Below, in pieces: positions 24,688 to 33,979 of a stretch of 50,883 nucleotides of DNA (within the stretch, counting starts at the first letter, position 1; the number at the start of each line of letters is the position of its first letter). A program made the translations under genes and the position numbers. The DNA lies in the IMG/VR virus record IMGVR_UViG_3300042923_000161, positions 1 to 50,883 of that record. One strand, written 5' to 3'. A model generated the notes under the pieces. It was given only the letters and a program-made list of their open reading frames with translations, was not told where the DNA came from and searched no databases. The DNA is from a virus (lineage: Duplodnaviria > Caudoviricetes).

Positions 24688-24723
24688 GGTGTTTTCTCCT
24701 TTCAGTCAGATCATTTTATATGC

Positions 24724-24752
24724 AATATAACACATTAAATGATCTGAGTCAA
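24724..24752 (-). promoter_or_regulatory. Sigma-A promoter
   Basis: TTGACT-N17-(TG)TATATT. Confidence 0.7.
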
Positions 24753-24768
24753 AGGAAAAGGCAGATGG

Positions 24769-25497
24769 TTAGTCTGCCTTATACTTGAACCCGGCATTGC
24801 AGTCAGAACATACAGTGTAATCTCCCCACAGATGGAACTCTGGAGACTTGCAAGCCGGGCAACCGTCCTCCAGCGATTCCACTTCGCCACAGTTGAATGC
24901 TCCGATGTCGTCCCAGAACTGACCGACCATCAGGTCGTTTTTGAAGTGCTCTTTCTGGTAACGGAGGGCTGGAATGAAAGGTAACTTCTCCAGATTCTCC
25001 TGTCCAAGAGCCTTATACGCTTCAATCTGATTACTCAGCAGCGCGTGTCCGAACTTCTCAACGTCAATGTACCGGGAGAAGTACAGCAGCTTGCGAATGA
25101 CCTTCTCAATCGACTCTTGGTTCACTTCAGCATCTGGCTCAAGCATGAAATACCTCTGCCATGAAGAGTATGCCCCGCCCCGGTTGATGTTACGCTCACC
25201 AAAATGTGACAACGGATGCAGTGTTGCACCCAAGACGCTGAAGGTGTCTTTGTTGAGTTGGTCAGCCCGGAACACAGCCCGTAGTGTGGCAGACGCAATC
25301 ATCTTCATAGTCATGTTCGGATTCAGCATGGACGGCAGTTCATACCATGGAATCGGCACGCTGTCGTCCGCTGCTTCCTCTGCGATAGCCATGAAGGTCT
25401 TGACAACCTCCAAGAACTTCGCTTTATCCTTCGCACGCAGCCGCTTCAGGTTTGGACGGGTGTCATCTATCATGATCGTTAGCGGTTTATCGCTCAT
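24769..25497 (-). CDS. Hypothetical protein with C-terminal Zn ribbon
   Basis: CPAC...CSDC. Confidence 0.7.
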   Translation of the reverse strand: MSDKPLTIMIDDTRPNLKRLRAKDKAKFLEVVKTFMAIAEEAADDSVPIPWYELPSMLNPNMTMKMIASATLRAVFRADQLNKDTFSVLGATLHPLSHFGERNINRGGAYSSWQRYFMLEPDAEVNQESIEKVIRKLLYFSRYIDVEKFGHALLSNQIEAYKALGQENLEKLPFIPALRYQKEHFKNDLMVGQFWDDIGAFNCGEVESLEDGCPACKSPEFHLWGDYTVCSDCNAGFKYKAD

Positions 25498-27827: not shown

Positions 27828-27923
27828 CTATTCCACAAAATGTCTTACTGATTGATAGATGACAACGCCCCAGAACACAACACACATAAACACAAGCCCT
27901 ACAAACGTCCGGTTTTGTTTCAT
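27828..27923 (-). CDS. Small single-TM peptide (31 aa)
   Basis: MKQNRTFVGLVFMCVVFWGVVIYQSVRHFVE; ATGA-coupled. Confidence 0.55.
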   Translation of the reverse strand: MKQNRTFVGLVFMCVVFWGVVIYQSVRHFVE

Positions 27924-28303
27924 GGTAACCAACCCCCCGATAACTTGTAATCCCGGTGCACTACAGTTCGTTCATCGTAATCCAGCCCACTAACATCAAT
28001 CTTGTTGTCATGCAATATCTTCTTCAATACCATTTTTATGTTTGTCAACTTTTTGTCAGCCTGTTCTGCACTATGCACATTGAATTCTCTCGTATTTTGA
28101 TAATACACACTGTCTGTCGTCCGTTCCTCATTGTAGCGACTTTTTGACTCACACATTCTAACTTCCAATTGCCCGACATGCCCGTGGTCGTTGACAAAGA
28201 CACACATATCTGTATGTAAGTTGATCAAAGATGCATAGAATGTGATGTCACTAATGATTGTTGCCGTGCGGTGCTTGACACGGTTAATTGACTCTGTTGT
28301 CAT
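27920..28303 (-). CDS. Hypothetical protein
   Basis: AAGGAG RBS; first gene downstream of the hammerhead. Confidence 0.7.
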   Translation of the reverse strand: MTTESINRVKHRTATIISDITFYASLINLHTDMCVFVNDHGHVGQLEVRMCESKSRYNEERTTDSVYYQNTREFNVHSAEQADKKLTNIKMVLKKILHDNKIDVSGLDYDERTVVHRDYKLSGGWLP

Positions 28304-28357
28304 AGTCCCATCTCCTTGTACATATATTGTAATAACTGATCCAGTACACTGTTACAT

Positions 28358-28419
28358 GCGGCATCCCGCTACGCTTCACAGCGTTTCGTTCCCGTGCCGG
28401 GGAACTCATCAGACGGTAC
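28358..28419 (-). ncRNA. Type I hammerhead ribozyme
   Basis: CCGU-CUGAUGA-GUUCCC(CGGCAC)GGGAAC-GAAACGC(UGUGAA)GCGUA^GCGG-GA-UGCCG. Full core, three stems, and loop II can pair with UGCCG. Confidence 0.92.
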
Positions 28420-28733
28420 TATTTCTCTGCGCGCTTGAGCGCATCATCCAACATACCAAGCAGAGCGCGTAATCCTTCAGGTGCGTTAGCTAACATTTCT
28501 TGCTTAACTAATTCTTGCAAGTTTTCAGCTATGGCGTTCATTGCTGGAAGGCTTGCGGCGTTCATAATTTGCAGCTTGCGGCCCTCTTCAACCTCATGCA
28601 CCATAGATAGGATAAAGCTGCTTGACTCTTTGATTTCGTGCACTTCCTCAGTCCCGTCACGTTTTACCAAGATTACCTTCTCGTATGGTTGTACATCAGC
28701 TTTTACAGTTTTGTTGTTTGTCATTTCAATCAA
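28419..28733 (-). CDS. Hypothetical protein
   Basis: Its stop codon abuts the hammerhead. Confidence 0.7.
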   Translation of the reverse strand: MIEMTNNKTVKADVQPYEKVILVKRDGTEEVHEIKESSSFILSMVHEVEEGRKLQIMNAASLPAMNAIAENLQELVKQEMLANAPEGLRALLGMLDDALKRAEK

Positions 28734-29116
28734 TCTCCCTTGGTTTGTTTTTGGTTTTTCCTTAGACTCAATAAATGGCGGTACTCATTATGTCCGAATG
28801 ATTTCATTCTTGACTTACGCATACTTAGGATTGCGGATATCATCTTGAAGAACTCTGATGGATTGTAATAGAAGCGAACAGCGTCACCGTTATGTCTGCG
28901 TTTATGTACATACGGACATGTCAGCATGTTGTATCTGTACCTGTGTTGGAACTTTCCTTCATGGTCACTTATTCTGATACTGAAAGCCAGTCCAGCATCC
29001 AGCCACATATACACGCTGCCTGTAGGTGAATCGAACCGTTCAACTCTTACACCTGCACGCTTCAGCCTGCGTTCTATCTTTTCAGCCAGCATTTTGACTT
29101 CCTCTTTGCTGTCCAC
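28730..29116 (-). CDS. Hypothetical protein (S.Y...IRISDH motif)
   Basis: TGSVY...IRISDH; GGAGGGAG RBS. Confidence 0.7.
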   Translation of the reverse strand: MDSKEEVKMLAEKIERRLKRAGVRVERFDSPTGSVYMWLDAGLAFSIRISDHEGKFQHRYRYNMLTCPYVHKRRHNGDAVRFYYNPSEFFKMISAILSMRKSRMKSFGHNEYRHLLSLRKNQKQTKGD

Positions 29117-29122
29117 ATCGGC

Positions 29123-29368
29123 TCAACTCCCTCCGATGGTTTTACTGACATCCATCACTGCTTCATTCAGCTTGTCGTACAGTGCACGTTCCTCAAAATC
29201 ACCGTTAAGTGTTCTAATGTTACGTGCATCCCTTGCGATCAATGCTCTTTTGCGCTGATCATGTGAAGCTGAACCGAACGCTGCTGCGACTGCAAGCAGT
29301 TCTTCTGGTGTAAGCCTAATCTCAACGCTCTCCACCATTGTTCTCTTGACAATCCCCATAACTTCCAT
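29123..29368 (-). CDS. Hypothetical protein
   Basis: GAGAGG RBS 9 nt before ATG 29368. Confidence 0.65.
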   Translation of the reverse strand: MEVMGIVKRTMVESVEIRLTPEELLAVAAAFGSASHDQRKRALIARDARNIRTLNGDFEERALYDKLNEAVMDVSKTIGGS

Positions 29369-29405
29369 TTCATTACACCTCTCTCTGGTTTTATTTTGGC
29401 GATGT

Positions 29406-29470
29406 GCCAACCCCTACCCCTTGCGGGGTGGACGCTCTGAGCCTAATGGCCTTGATCCCGCTCAGACGGG
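29406..29470 (-). ncRNA. Pistol ribozyme
   Basis: P1 CCCG/CGGG with loop UCUGAG; P2 GCCA/UGGC; UUAGG; pseudoknot partner CUCAGA; GCG; P3 capped by GCAA; G^U junction. Confidence 0.85.
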
Positions 29471-30169
29471 TTATCTATCTTCTTTCTTCAGGAACGGATT
29501 CTGCCAGATGTTCGCTTGGTACGTTGTGATTGCTGCTTCTCTATGTAGCTGATCTTTGAAGTCGTTCCAAGCTTGGCGCAGCATCGGTTTATCTTGTTTC
29601 TTTCCTTGTGTCCCAAGTTCCGGGTATACCTGTCTAAACAACCTTGTCGCCTGTGATTTATTCAACTTGTCAACCTCCCATTTTGGTCTGAGCCGTTTAT
29701 ACACATGCTCCACAGCATCTGCAATTTGTGAAGCCATGTCATACACCAGTGACAGCCGTGTATTCTGAAGCACGAAGTATTCCATGAAGCCGCCCACATT
29801 GACAATTGCCTTAATGTGTGCATCACCTACGGCTGGAAGAGTCTTGCCCACACCTGCGCCGGGCTTCAACGGCCCAATCTCACATATCGCTTTACCTACA
29901 CTAGATGACTGACCAAGACAAGCATCAATTGCCAGTGTGTAGCGCTTTGGCAATGTGTTCAAGATACCCTCTTCCATACTCACCGCATGGACTGGCTTGT
30001 GCAGTGTTCCATACACATTCCTAATCCCTCTTTGCTGAAGCATAAGCCCAACCATCGGGCCTAAGCTGTCTCCCGTGCTGCGATCTGTGCCGATACATAC
30101 GATGTTCATTTCAGATATGTGACGTGGGACGATTGCATCCAGTTCTTTAGTCAGTGACATGTCAGTCAA
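29471..30169 (-). CDS. yyaC: YyaC-family spore protease with a C-terminal extra domain
   Basis: CIGTDRSTGDSLGPMVG, YGTL..PVHA, AIDACLG, PGAGVGK.LPAVGD and LQNTRLSLV. Confidence 0.92.
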   Translation of the reverse strand: MTDMSLTKELDAIVPRHISEMNIVCIGTDRSTGDSLGPMVGLMLQQRGIRNVYGTLHKPVHAVSMEEGILNTLPKRYTLAIDACLGQSSSVGKAICEIGPLKPGAGVGKTLPAVGDAHIKAIVNVGGFMEYFVLQNTRLSLVYDMASQIADAVEHVYKRLRPKWEVDKLNKSQATRLFRQVYPELGTQGKKQDKPMLRQAWNDFKDQLHREAAITTYQANIWQNPFLKKEDR

Positions 30170-32399: not shown

Positions 32400-33000
32400 C
32401 GTTACTTTGCGAATGTTTCAGGTTAACGGGTTCAAAGCTGACATGACTGTAAAAACTGGATACTGATGGCAATTTCTGCAACACTAATAGTGTTTCATGT
32501 TGCTGTAGGGTGTAACTTGTTTCCGAATTCATGTAAGCCAAGCGGGAATCCTGTAACATTTGGCGTGTTCACGTGTGTTGTTACGTTGTGGTGCTTTGTA
32601 AAATTAATAATGTTGCATTGAAAGTTGGAACGACTTATTACGGAAAAGATGAAAATTGGAAATTAGTTTCGGTTAAGCCAATCACCAAATCGCGGATGGC
32701 TCTCTCTAAAACCATAATGCATTGAAAACGAAAACCGTTATTTTCATTACTTTCATAGTGTTTTCATTGAATTTAGGTCTGTAGACCCCTTGTTTTCATG
32801 AAATGAGTTGATCCTTTCATTTCGTTTGCAATGAATTAGCTTTTTCAAAATTTGAAAATGAAAATCGGAAAATCGCTTACCTGTACCAAACTAACCGTTG
32901 TAACATAACTTAACCTAATAATAACCAATACTAATAATAATATACATAATAATAATAATAATAATAATAATAATCTTGATAATGTTCTATATAATGCTTT
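32400..33000. other. Putative replication origin (non-coding, iterated motifs, AT-rich tract)
   Basis: No credible ORF; many TGAAA/TTTCA and TGTAAC/TGTTGCA/TGTTTCA motifs; (TAA)9 tract. Confidence 0.5.
32947..32973. repeat. (TAA)9 microsatellite
   Basis: Read directly from the sequence. Confidence 0.9.
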
Positions 33001-33021
33001 AGTGACTTACAGTATGAAGCG

Positions 33022-33057
33022 AAAAAGAAGGGATTTTGTGATTCAAATCCCCTCTTT
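33022..33057 (-). terminator. Rho-independent terminator
   Basis: AAAGAGGGGATTT-loop-AAATCCCTTCTTTTT on the minus strand. Confidence 0.75.
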
Positions 33058-33069
33058 GCATTATTTGCA

Positions 33070-33563: not shown

Positions 33564-33587
33564 TGTTTATTCCTCCTATTAGGTTAT

Positions 33588-33833
33588 GTACTGGGCTTGA
33601 AGCCCATTCCAACCGCTGATGCTTCAGCAGATCGAATGGAATTCAAATCCGTTAGCCCCAACGCGCCCTCTGTACCAGATGCCTAATCCGGTAACCTCAT
33701 GTAGCGCGTCACGCTTACCATCTGATAACGGGGTTTGGTCATGTCCCGGCTGATATCTACTCCAGCTTATTGATGTCTTGCACGTTTACAGTAATGTTGC
33801 TGTGGGATTCACGCTTCACCCACGTTCCAGTAC
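33588..33833 (-). ncRNA. Candidate ~250-nt structured RNA (class not recognised)
   Basis: ORF-free leader closed by GUACUGG/CCAGUAC, with several internal helices and a possible pseudoknot. Confidence 0.6.
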
Positions 33834-33864
33834 GTTGTTTCTGCGTTCCTTACTTGATGTACTT

Positions 33865-33894
33865 AGTATAGCACATCCGGCTTACCTGTGTCAA
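33865..33894 (-). promoter_or_regulatory. Early sigma-A promoter (proximal copy)
   Basis: TTGACA-N18-TATACT with extended -10 TG. Confidence 0.8.
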
Positions 33895-33949
33895 CACTTT
33901 GTTTGAAACATTTTTGTGTGTGTTTCGTGTTGCTCTTGTTTCTATAACT

Positions 33950-33979
33950 AATATAGCACATGGCGCTTATGTGTGTCAA
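33950..33979 (-). promoter_or_regulatory. Early sigma-A promoter (distal copy)
   Basis: TTGACA-N18-TATATT; near-duplicate of the proximal copy (AAAGTGTTGACACA...TAAGC...ATGTGCTATA). Confidence 0.8.

What the first reader, a model, noticed from the sequence alone, without database searches (positions are those of the whole stretch)
28358..29470. Two different self-cleaving ribozymes bracket a three-gene block, and each leaves a hairpin-capped 5' end
Seen: on the minus (early) strand a pistol (cut at 29411/29410) and a hammerhead (cut at 28370/28369) each begin immediately after a stop codon and end a few tens of nt before the next RBS. Both downstream products begin with a perfect hairpin at base 1: UUGGC-ACAUC-GCCAA for the pistol and GCGG-GAUG-CCGC for the hammerhead. 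Each hairpin reuses bases that were part of the ribozyme (P2, or stem I and the pseudoknot). Known: both classes produce 5'-OH and 2',3'-cyclic phosphate ends; in Bacillus, RNase J1 degrades the unstructured 5'-OH glmS product, and 5'-terminal stems impede it. Inference: this is a protein-free mRNA processing and stabilisation system, a ribozyme analogue of T7 RNase III sites, in which refolding also prevents religation. It would release a 1041-nt RNA (29410 to 28370) encoding three unknown proteins, with ends that are chemically compatible with circularisation.
Basis: partly seen in the sequence, partly recalled or inferred. Interest (0 to 1): 0.9.

Follow-up and report, generated by a model that had tools for sequence, protein, structure and literature searches.

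The report
Phage ribozyme pair with snap-back hairpins
A soil phage carries two different self-cutting RNAs (a pistol and a hammerhead) around three small unknown genes, and the RNA left downstream of each cut can fold its new end into a small hairpin, a feature that recurs in many related ribozymes and may protect the message.

Summary
Rfam finds a pistol ribozyme at 29406-29471(-), 42.1 bits against a cut-off of 34.5, cutting G29411|U29410. A complete type-I hammerhead sits at 28359-28416(-): full core, three stems, a 5-bp loop II-tail pseudoknot, cut A28370|G28369. Rfam does not report it, but Rfam also missed 21 of 21 comparable phage hammerheads. My descriptor hits once in the window against 0.0033 per shuffle. 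Both 3' products begin with the perfect hairpins described, and the released RNA is 1041 nt.

Ribozymes flanking short gene blocks in phages are already known (PMC3088659). The possibly new part is the snap-back hairpin, which recurs beyond chance. For pistols, 31 of 110 clusters have it against about 12 expected, but one of three samples showed no excess. For hammerheads of the window's type, 20 of 53 have it against 5% background, with head/arm covariation.

The hairpin most likely caps the 5'-OH end and makes cleavage irreversible. That step is inferred, because no RNA data exist. Circularisation is unsupported. Verdict: real ribozymes of a known kind with a possibly new recurrent feature.

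The parts
33865..33979 (-). Two tandem near-consensus sigma-70-type promoters (TTGACA, 18-nt spacer, TG-extended -10; 11 of 12 matches each). They are the likely start of the leftward early operon that contains both ribozymes.
   Evidence: consensus scan only; the number of promoter-like sites in the region is no higher than in shuffles
29471..30169 (-). Upstream gene: a DUF1256 / YyaC-like 'spore protease' family protein, 232 aa. Its TAA stop overlaps the first base of the pistol model.
   Evidence: (PF06866, E 1.8e-49)
29406..29471 (-). Pistol self-cleaving ribozyme. The predicted cut is between G29411 and U29410.
   Evidence: RF02679, 42.1 bits against 34.5; stems and pseudoknot read
29396..29410 (-). 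Snap-back hairpin of the pistol 3' product, UUGGC-ACAUC-GCCAA. The 5' arm is U+1 plus the P2 3' strand.
   Evidence: present in the MFE fold; family-level enrichment
29123..29368 (-). Gene 1, 81 aa from the ATG at 29368, with Shine-Dalgarno GAGAGGUG about 7 nt upstream. No family match. In relatives the similarity stops at 29390-29392 and resumes at 29089-29134.
28730..29116 (-). Gene 2, 128 aa from GTG (or 120 aa from the ATG at 29092). No family match.
28419..28724 (-). Gene 3, 101 aa. No family match; the Atlas gives only unnamed viral clusters.
28359..28416 (-). Type-I hammerhead with a loop II-tail pseudoknot. The catalytic part is 28370-28416. The stem I 3' strand is 28366-28369 and the pseudoknot partner is 28359-28363. 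The predicted cut is between A28370 and G28369.
   Evidence: no Rfam match
28358..28369 (-). Snap-back hairpin of the hammerhead 3' product, GCGG-GAUG-CCGC. It cannot coexist with stem I or with the pseudoknot, because it shares CCG at 28361-28359 with the pseudoknot partner.
   Evidence: subfamily enrichment and covariation; relative L388
27920..28303 (-). Gene 4, 127 aa, the first gene of the hammerhead 3' product, with Shine-Dalgarno AAGGAGA at 28311-28317. It is absent from one relative's contig: a joint 27923|28321 with 17 other letters between.
24758..24780 (-). Terminator-like hairpin (8-bp stem plus a T run), the likely end of the early operon.

Best explanation
A leftward early operon of about 9 kb in a phage of a probable spore-forming Bacillota host is cut by two unrelated self-cleaving ribozymes. 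The pieces are a 5' piece ending in the pistol fold, a 1041-nt three-gene RNA ending in the hammerhead fold, and a 3' piece. In both ribozymes the open helix (pistol P2; hammerhead stem I plus the tail pseudoknot) holds the 3' product by only 4-5 bp. A copy of that helix's 5' strand lies 4-5 nt downstream. Once the backbone is cut, the freed strand snaps back on this copy and forms a blunt 5'-terminal hairpin. The inferred effects are that cleavage becomes irreversible and the 5'-OH end is occluded from 5'-to-3' exonuclease (RNase J-type), while the ribozyme folds left on the upstream pieces act as 3' caps.

Shown: the sequence anatomy, family membership of the pistol, and statistical recurrence and covariation of the hairpins.

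Inferred: cleavage in vivo, refolding, protection, and the host.
For: Ribozymes:
- Pistol: Rfam match above the cut-off.
- Hammerhead: full core, three stems and a 5-bp pseudoknot. The descriptor gives 1 hit against 0.0033 per shuffle and 0 hits in 176 kb of control DNA.
- A ~90%-identical relative's contig changes U2.1 to C, turning the stem I U-G pair into C-G.

Hairpins in pistols:
- At least 5 bp from product base 1 or 2: 19 of 64 viral clusters. Expectations are 5.4 (swap), 5.5 (own-tail shuffle) and 7.0 (all T positions of the same loci).
- 7 of 22 genome clusters, against 2.4-3.1 expected.
- All three samples together: 31 of 110 against about 12; Watson-Crick only, 12 of 110 against 2.5.
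- The positives have 15 different head sequences among 19.
- U+1, which is not part of P2, faces A in 15 of 19 (background 0.42, p 0.001). This gives a blunt end.

Hairpins in hammerheads of the window's type (product starts GYGG):
- Watson-Crick hairpin from base 1 in 20 of 53 clusters, against 5.0% (388 of 7764) at other GYGG sites of the same loci.
- Head and arm covary: GCGG-CCGC 13, GCGG-CCAC 3, GUGG-CCGC 0, GUGG-CCAC 4; Fisher p 0.007.
- The nearest relative, L388, has GUGG-GAAA-CCAC followed by the same 17-nt stretch as the window. That is a double compensatory change.

Context:
- Strong promoters at 33.9 kb and a terminator at 24.76 kb, with nothing strong between.
- RNase J1 degrades the 5'-OH glmS product, and occlusion of the 5' end stabilises Bacillus mRNAs (PMC3997798 passages).
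- The synthetic RiboJ (ribozyme plus hairpin) raises mRNA level, and its authors suggest the terminal hairpin as the cause (PMC6206723 passages).
Against: - No RNA data exist, so cleavage and ends are unobserved.
- Rfam finds no hammerhead even at E<=10.
- The pistol's 42.1 bits is the lowest of the 15 Rfam-confirmed pistols I saw (the others score 55.4-70.8). Its P1-P2 linker is AUCAAG where the consensus is AUAAAUA, so its activity could be weak.
- The third pistol sample showed no excess: 5 of 24 against 2.6-3.5 expected, and 0 of 24 Watson-Crick only.
- In a general type-I hammerhead sample, hairpins of at least 5 bp were not enriched (7 of 59 against 4.9-6.1). Only the 4-bp count (24 against 14.6-15.5) and the MFE measure (15 against 4.1) were.
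- With G-U pairs allowed, the GYGG background is high (31.8%) and the excess is modest (27 of 53, p 0.003).
- About two thirds of pistols have no such hairpin, so it is not required.
- Nested-structure folding of the uncut RNAs already prefers the hairpins to P2 and stem I. They could therefore act before cleavage.
- The host is inferred only from a DUF1256 gene and a 35%-identical Paenibacillus-phage terminase.
- Clusters at 80% identity are not fully independent.
Confidence: 0.5

Rival explanations
1. The downstream complements act before cleavage. They compete with P2 or stem I for the same strand, so only a fraction of transcripts cleave, or cleavage depends on folding kinetics or on the ribosome terminating just upstream. 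They would be tuning or OFF-state elements rather than end caps.
For: MFE folds of the uncut RNAs contain the hairpins in place of P2 and stem I. Hammerhead stem I begins 2 nt after the stop codon, and in L388 the stop UGA lies inside the CUGAUGA core, so a terminating ribosome would mask stem I. The enrichment and covariation fit this reading as well as they fit the cap reading.
Against: In pistols the hairpin usually also pairs U+1, which is outside P2 (A opposite in 15 of 19). A competitor does not need that pair; a blunt end does. For the hammerhead, the active fold has 4 + 5 bp (stem I plus pseudoknot) against 4 bp for the hairpin, so the hairpin should win only after the cut. Pseudoknots are not counted.
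Confidence: 0.2
2. Both ribozymes cut, but the hairpins in this window are chance or a historical by-product, for example short direct repeats left when ribozyme modules were moved. Under this reading they have no function of their own.
For: About 8-11% of control sites give a pistol-type hairpin, and 32% of GYGG sites give a 4-bp hairpin when G-U pairs are allowed. The third pistol sample shows no excess. The hammerhead's stem I 5' strand and the hairpin 3' arm form a 4-nt direct repeat flanking the ribozyme. Relatives' similarity breaks close to both modules.
Against: Both window hairpins are perfect Watson-Crick, for which the backgrounds are 2.3% (pistol type, 5 bp) and 5.0% (GYGG, 4 bp). 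Covariation is seen across divergent members and in L388.
Confidence: 0.2
3. Only the pistol is active, and the hammerhead-like element is a decayed or non-catalytic look-alike. The operon would then be cut once, and no 1041-nt RNA would be released.
For: No Rfam hammerhead match at any threshold tried. Stem I is only 4 bp and includes a U-G pair.
Against: Every core position fits the consensus. Stems II and III are strong and the pseudoknot is 5 bp. Rfam missed 21 of 21 descriptor hammerheads in 18 other phage loci. Short stem I with a pseudoknot is the common architecture of the 53-cluster subfamily. Pseudoknotted hammerheads are active (PMC3088659 passages).
Confidence: 0.12
4. The 1041-nt RNA is circularised through its 5'-OH and 2',3'-cyclic phosphate ends.
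For: The end chemistry is that of RtcB substrates (general knowledge; both ribozyme classes give these ends, PMC4604425 passages).
Against: The two ends belong to different ribozyme folds, so neither fold can bring them together for self-ligation. No RtcB gene is in the phage. Of the 14 control genomes in that call, Bacillus subtilis was not among the 10 with RtcB. The 5' end is predicted to be buried in a hairpin.
Confidence: 0.03

Closest known systems
Multiple hammerhead ribozymes flanking single genes or short gene blocks in prophages (Perreault et al. 2011, PMC3088659; passages read)
   Same: Self-cleaving ribozymes in the intergenic spaces of a polycistronic phage transcript. Type-I hammerhead with a pseudoknot tertiary contact. 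Small genes of unknown function lie between them. Those examples cleaved in vitro, and in E. coli for one locus.
   Different: Here the two ribozymes belong to different classes. The paper's passages that I read do not mention a product hairpin or refolding. Its supplementary figures were not available to me.
Clustering of different self-cleaving ribozyme classes near each other and near phage genes. This clustering was the basis on which pistol was discovered (Weinberg et al. 2015, as described in PMC4604425 and PMC6765202; passages and section 13 read).
   Same: A pistol and a hammerhead about 1 kb apart on one strand. I saw the same in L040, L085/L117, L097 (two pistols and two hammerheads in 3 kb), L118/L126 and L061 (pistol, twister, pistol).
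   Different: The original 2015 paper is not held, so I could not check whether downstream hairpins were noted there.
glmS ribozyme and RNase J1 (PMC3997798; passages read)
   Same: Ribozyme cleavage leaves a 5'-OH mRNA in a Gram-positive cell.
   Different: In glmS the 5'-OH end is the entry site for RNase J1 and the mRNA is destroyed. Here the product is proposed to hide that end in a hairpin, giving the opposite outcome. This was not tested.
RiboJ synthetic insulator: the sTRSV hammerhead-type ribozyme followed by a 23-nt hairpin (PMC6206723; passages read)
   Same: A ribozyme upstream of an RBS, a cleaved mRNA that starts with a hairpin-containing leader, and higher mRNA and protein levels that the authors tentatively ascribe to the terminal hairpin.
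   Different: RiboJ's hairpin is a separate added element. Here the hairpin's 5' arm is the very strand that formed the ribozyme's open helix, so it can form fully only after, or instead of, the active fold. This one is natural, not engineered.
5'-terminal stem-loop stabilisers of bacterial mRNAs and phage T7 RNase III processing sites
   Same: Processing of a polycistronic phage mRNA into pieces with structured ends. Occlusion of the 5' end stabilises mRNA (PMC3997798 passages and its references 93-95).
   Different: No protein nuclease is needed, and the ends are 5'-OH and 2',3'-cyclic phosphate. The T7 comparison is recalled and comes from no call.

Membership tests
Pistol ribozyme (RF02679) | Covariance-model score at or above Rfam's gathering score over the full model | tested here: met
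   42.1 bits against 34.5, model positions 1-68.
Pistol ribozyme (RF02679) | P1, P2 and P3 stems, plus the pseudoknot between the P1 loop and the segment before GAGCG | tested here: met
   P1 is CCCG/CGGG and P2 is GCCA/UGGC. P3 is 8 pairs with one bulge. The pseudoknot is UCUGAG/CUCAGA. The same variable triplets are complementary in 64 of 64 sampled clusters.
Pistol ribozyme (RF02679) | G-U cleavage dinucleotide between P3 and the P2 3' strand | tested here: met
   G29411-U29410 aligns to model positions 63-64.
Pistol ribozyme (RF02679) | Conserved A-rich linker between P1 and P2 (consensus AUAAAUA) | tested here: inconclusive
   The window has AUCAAG, with two model positions deleted and lower posterior probabilities.
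Pistol ribozyme (RF02679) | Site-specific self-cleavage giving 2',3'-cyclic phosphate and 5'-OH ends | not testable with these tools
   No RNA run holds the sequence.
Hammerhead ribozyme, type I | Catalytic core C3 U4 G5 A6 N7 G8 A9, G12 A13 A14, the A15.1-U16.1 pair, and H17 before the cut (consensus recalled, encoded in my descriptor) | tested here: met
   CUGAUGA, GAAA, A...U closing stem III, and A17. The descriptor gives 1 hit in the window against 0.0033 per shuffle.
Hammerhead ribozyme, type I | Three helices around the core, with stem I open | tested here: met
   Stem I is 4 bp (U-G at its base; C-G in a relative). Stem II is 6 bp. Stem III is 5 bp with a GUGA loop.
Hammerhead ribozyme, type I | [quoted passage not shown] | tested here: met
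   CGGCA pairs with UGCCG, 5 bp, 2 nt after stem I.
Hammerhead ribozyme, type I | Match to an Rfam hammerhead model | tested here: not met
   There was no match at E<=10. The test has little power here, because 0 of 21 descriptor hammerheads in 18 other phage loci reached gathering.
Hammerhead ribozyme, type I | Self-cleavage after H17 | not testable with these tools
   No RNA data exist.
5'-terminal stem-loop mRNA stabiliser | A hairpin at or within a very few nucleotides of the mature 5' end | tested here: met
   If the cuts occur as predicted, both hairpins start at base 1.
5'-terminal stem-loop mRNA stabiliser | A longer mRNA half-life that depends on the hairpin | not testable with these tools
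   This needs half-life measurements of hairpin mutants.
Ribozyme-derived circular RNA | A means to join the two ends: the same ribozyme at both ends, or an RtcB-type ligase | tested here: not met
   The two ends come from different ribozyme classes. No RtcB is in the phage. The host is unknown.

The most novel reading that the evidence does not exclude
Snap-back 5' capping is a selected design principle of phage ribozymes whose open helix would otherwise leave a single-stranded 5'-OH end (pistol, type-I hammerhead). A downstream copy of the helix's 5' strand turns the released strand into a blunt terminal hairpin. This makes the cut irreversible and protects the downstream mRNA, so that ribozyme plus hairpin is a natural, portable counterpart of the RiboJ insulator, sitting at the boundaries of exchangeable gene cassettes.
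Probability: 0.4. Interest if true: 0.75.

Novelty: new variant of a known kind. Interest (0 to 1): 0.6.

Why it matters
The biological role of the thousands of self-cleaving ribozymes in bacteria and phages is still described as largely elusive (PMC6765202, section 13). A recurrent, covarying structure in the cleavage product would be the first sequence-level sign of what happens to the RNA after the cut. It also gives a simple, falsifiable experiment: hairpin-arm mutants and compensatory mutants, with and without RNase J. If the hairpin protects 5'-OH mRNAs, it explains how ribozyme cleavage can raise expression where glmS cleavage lowers it. It would also provide compact natural insulator parts for Gram-positive hosts.

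Tried and rejected
Searches that found nothing or added little:
- Rfam at E<=10 on the hammerhead region and on the whole window, and RF00163 on the record: no hammerhead. I judge this uninformative, because Rfam also reported none of 21 descriptor hammerheads in 18 loci.
- Close relatives. blastn against phages gave no match. The gene 4 protein in viral contigs and the gene 2 protein in metagenome contigs found no relatives. The 17 DUF1256 loci (46-73% identity) carry no Rfam ribozyme and no descriptor hammerhead. A pattern built on the window's stem II found 4 unrelated hammerheads. Paenibacillus phage API480, the nearest named phage at 35% terminase identity, has no ribozyme by Rfam or by the descriptor.
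- RNA evidence: no RNA holder is listed among the 4 runs. The runs laid were DNA contigs only. A part without cover, or the truncated table of differences (126 rows not shown), shows nothing about conservation.
- Distance from the cut to the Shine-Dalgarno site in hairpin-positive against hairpin-negative products: no significant difference (pistol p 0.29, hammerhead p 0.28).
- The head/tail swap control is invalid for the GYGG subfamily because all heads are alike (49%). I replaced it with natural backgrounds.
- Function of the three genes: no Pfam or PHROG family. The Atlas gave only unnamed viral clusters for gene 3 and could not read gene 2. Gene 3 against the L388 downstream ORF scored E 0.073, which is not significant.
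- Literature: searches (listings), plus passages of PMC4604425, PMC6765202, PMC3088659, PMC3997798 and PMC6206723, gave no description of a product hairpin built from the ribozyme's open helix.
- I considered building my own covariance model for hammerheads and dropped the idea. A model trained on descriptor hits would only restate the descriptor.
Full report
WHAT THE WINDOW IS. The window is a complete 50,883-bp virus record with direct terminal repeats. It has no near relative among deposited phages. Its large terminase is 35% identical to that of the Paenibacillus larvae phages SV21 and API480, which have a similar layout. The gene just upstream of the pistol is a DUF1256/YyaC-like 'spore protease'. 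A spore-forming Bacillota host is therefore likely, but this is inferred. Genes from about 34 kb down to 13.5 kb lie on the minus strand. Two near-consensus extended -10 promoters lie at 33979-33865(-), and a terminator-like hairpin lies at 24780-24758(-). No comparably strong signal lies between them. The two elements therefore most likely sit in the middle of one early transcript of about 9 kb. These are consensus matches only.

THE OBSERVATION. Rfam places a full-length pistol ribozyme at 29406-29471(-), 42.1 bits against a gathering score of 34.5. The cleavage dinucleotide is G29411|U29410. P1, P2 (GCCA/UGGC), P3 and a 6-bp pseudoknot are all present. Two cautions apply. The score is the lowest of the 15 pistols Rfam confirmed for me; the others score 55.4-70.8. 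The A-rich P1-P2 linker is also shortened and carries a C.

The hammerhead gets no Rfam match, even at E<=10 on 271 bases, on the whole window, or with RF00163 alone. Read directly, it nevertheless has every core nucleotide. It has a 4-bp stem I, a 6-bp stem II, a 5-bp stem III with a GNRA loop, and A17 before the cut at A28370|G28369. Five bases of loop II are complementary to the tail at 28363-28359. That is the pseudoknot type of tertiary contact shown to be needed for fast cleavage in such hammerheads (PMC3088659 passages).

A descriptor encoding only the consensus finds this one site in both strands of the window. Dinucleotide shuffles give 0.0033 hits on average, and 1 of 300 had any. 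The descriptor finds nothing in 131 kb of DUF1256 loci or 45 kb of API480. Rfam at gathering reported none of the 21 descriptor hammerheads in 18 other phage loci, although it reported the pistols and tRNAs there. The Rfam negative therefore carries little weight.

In DNA contigs of a ~90%-identical relative, the only listed change inside the hammerhead is U2.1 to C, which turns the stem I U-G pair into C-G. That table is truncated, so this is only suggestive.

IS THE ARRANGEMENT NEW? No. Multiple hammerheads flanking single genes or short gene blocks in prophages, active on ~2-kb polycistronic transcripts in vitro and in E. coli, were described in 2011 (PMC3088659). Pistol itself was found by searching near other ribozymes and phage genes (PMC4604425; PMC6765202 section 13). 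I saw the same clustering in my own samples. Type-I hammerheads lie on the same strand as pistols in 6 of 118 pistol loci. L097 has two pistols and two hammerheads within 3 kb, and L061 has pistol, twister, pistol. A role in processing polycistronic RNAs into pieces of different stability has been suggested before, without a mechanism.

ARE THE PRODUCT HAIRPINS MORE THAN CHANCE? This is the part that could be new, so I tested it on other ribozymes.

Pistols. I took three samples with the same core pattern. I parsed each with a rule that looks only at P3, the N-U step and P2, and I clustered the results at 80% identity. The parsed cut sites agreed with the Rfam model ends in the 9 cases I checked by hand.
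- Viral contigs: 124 matches, 98 parsed, 96 with at least 40 nt of product, 64 clusters. Nineteen have a hairpin of at least 5 bp starting at product base 1 or 2. Expected numbers are 5.4 (heads and tails swapped), 5.5 (own tail shuffled) and 7.0 (all T positions in the same loci). Windows shifted 10-40 nt downstream give 3-8.
- Genome contigs: 123 matches, 45 parsed, 5 dropped as duplicates of the first set, 22 new clusters. Seven are positive against 2.4-3.1 expected.
- Metagenome contigs: 122 matches, 81 parsed, 51 of 78 dropped as duplicates, 24 new clusters. Five are positive against 2.6-3.5 expected, so there is no excess. None are positive with Watson-Crick pairs only.
- Together: 31 of 110 against about 12; Watson-Crick only, 12 of 110 against 2.5.

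The 19 clusters with a hairpin of at least 4 bp built on the P2 strand, starting at product base 2, carry 15 different head sequences, so the downstream arm tracks P2 as P2 varies. The base facing U+1, which is not part of P2, is A in 15 of the 19 (background 0.42, p 0.001). This makes the end blunt.

Hammerheads. In a general sample of type-I hammerheads (76 hits, 59 clusters) the signal is weak.
- At least 5 bp: 7 against 4.9-6.1 expected.
- At least 4 bp: 24 against 14.6-15.5 expected.
- MFE measure: 15 against 4.1 expected.

In the subfamily to which the window's ribozyme belongs (short stem I, product starting GYGG; 83 hits, 53 clusters including the window) the signal is strong once G-U pairs are excluded. 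Twenty of 53 have a Watson-Crick hairpin from base 1, against 5.0% (388 of 7764) of other GYGG sites in the same loci. With G-U pairs allowed the background is 31.8% and the excess is modest (27 of 53, p 0.003).

Head and arm covary: GCGG with CCGC 13, GCGG with CCAC 3, GUGG with CCGC 0, GUGG with CCAC 4; Fisher p 0.007.

The nearest relative I found, L388, has GUGG-GAAA-CCAC followed by the same 17 nucleotides as the window. That is a compensatory C-G to U-A change, with stem I's 5' strand changed to match. L398 has the identical GCGG-GAUG-CCGC behind a quite different stem II. The recurrence is therefore real in many lineages but is neither universal nor uniform.

HOW IT MOST LIKELY WORKS. 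In both ribozymes the 3' product is held only by a short open helix. After the cut, that intermolecular helix (4 bp for P2; 4 bp plus a 5-bp pseudoknot for the hammerhead) competes with an intramolecular hairpin made from the same strand and a nearby copy of its former partner.

For the hammerhead, the hairpin's 3' arm (28361-28358) overlaps the pseudoknot partner (28363-28359). Active fold and hairpin therefore exclude each other: nine pairs favour the active fold before the cut, and only the hairpin survives after it.

The consequences are inferred. The cut becomes irreversible and the product is released. The 5'-OH end, which RNase J1 can attack as it does on the glmS product, is occluded, as in known 5' stabilisers (PMC3997798). 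The synthetic RiboJ part behaves this way according to its users (PMC6206723). The hammerhead and pistol folds left on the upstream pieces would act as structured 3' ends.

From the topology of the motif (established knowledge, not a call), type II and type III hammerheads leave a 3' product that begins with the closed stem I hairpin. The snap-back would give type I and pistol products what those types have by construction.

RIVALS.
- The complements may act before cleavage as competitors that tune or gate it. The uncut RNAs' nested MFE folds already contain the hairpins. Stem I lies within reach of a terminating ribosome.
- The window's hairpins may be chance or a by-product of module transfer.
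- The hammerhead may be inactive.
- Circularisation is very unlikely: the two ends come from different folds, and no RtcB is in the phage.

WHAT WAS NOT POSSIBLE. No RNA run holds the sequence. The claim that the snap-back hairpin is undescribed rests on the searches and on the passages read.

VERDICT. The ribozyme pair is a new member of a known arrangement. The product hairpins are a plausible, statistically supported and possibly undescribed feature whose function remains inferred. Interest 0.6.

Noticed in passing
window 29089-29392 and 27923-28321: In DNA contigs of ~90%-identical relatives (coded runs X2, X4) the similarity breaks close to both ribozyme modules. At the pistol it stops at 29390-29392, 4-6 nt after the product hairpin, and resumes at 29089-29134, so gene 1 is replaced or diverged beyond 80%. 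After the hammerhead, one contig joins 28321 to 27923 with 17 other letters between, so gene 4 with its Shine-Dalgarno site is missing. The ribozyme-hairpin modules look like boundaries of exchangeable gene cassettes.
   Followed up: partly
window 33564-33862 (-): A 299-nt non-coding stretch directly downstream of the two strong early promoters folds much better than shuffles (-91.9 kcal/mol, z -3.13, 0 of 200 shuffles as good). It has no Rfam match at E<=10. It may be a structured leader or a small RNA.
   Followed up: partly
window 32560-33069 (-), repeat at 32916-32974: A 510-nt AT-rich non-coding gap inside the early region contains about 19 copies of TAA/ATT. It may be an origin or a regulatory region.
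   Followed up: no
window 24694-24759: A long inverted repeat (CAGAUCAUUU...AAAUGAUCUG) lies just downstream of the minus-strand terminator. It gave weak 'mir-1245' hits on both strands and folds at -31 kcal/mol within an 81-nt gap. It may be a bidirectional terminator or an operator.
   Followed up: no
L388 3872-3880 (-): In the closest hammerhead relative, the upstream ORF's stop codon UGA is U4-G5-A6 of the CUGAUGA core, and stem I's 5' strand is coding sequence. Translation termination and ribozyme folding must therefore interfere there.
   Followed up: no
L097 (3.9 kb) and L061: There are dense ribozyme arrays on one strand. L097 has pistol, hammerhead, pistol, hammerhead within about 3 kb. 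L061 has pistol, type-P5 twister, pistol within about 4 kb.
   Followed up: partly
window 28326-28355 (-); L388 3780-3815 (-): The 17 nt after the hammerhead product hairpin (CAUGUAACAnUGUAnUG) are shared between the window and L388, although the flanking genes differ. In the window they overlap a weak promoter-like match (GTAACA, 18-nt spacer, TACAAT; 9 of 12). The meaning is unknown.
   Followed up: no
window 29471-30169 (-): The DUF1256/YyaC-like protein carries a C-terminal extension (residues ~170-226) that matches separate small PHROG families of unknown function (phrog_336, phrog_10097). It may be a fusion.
   Followed up: no
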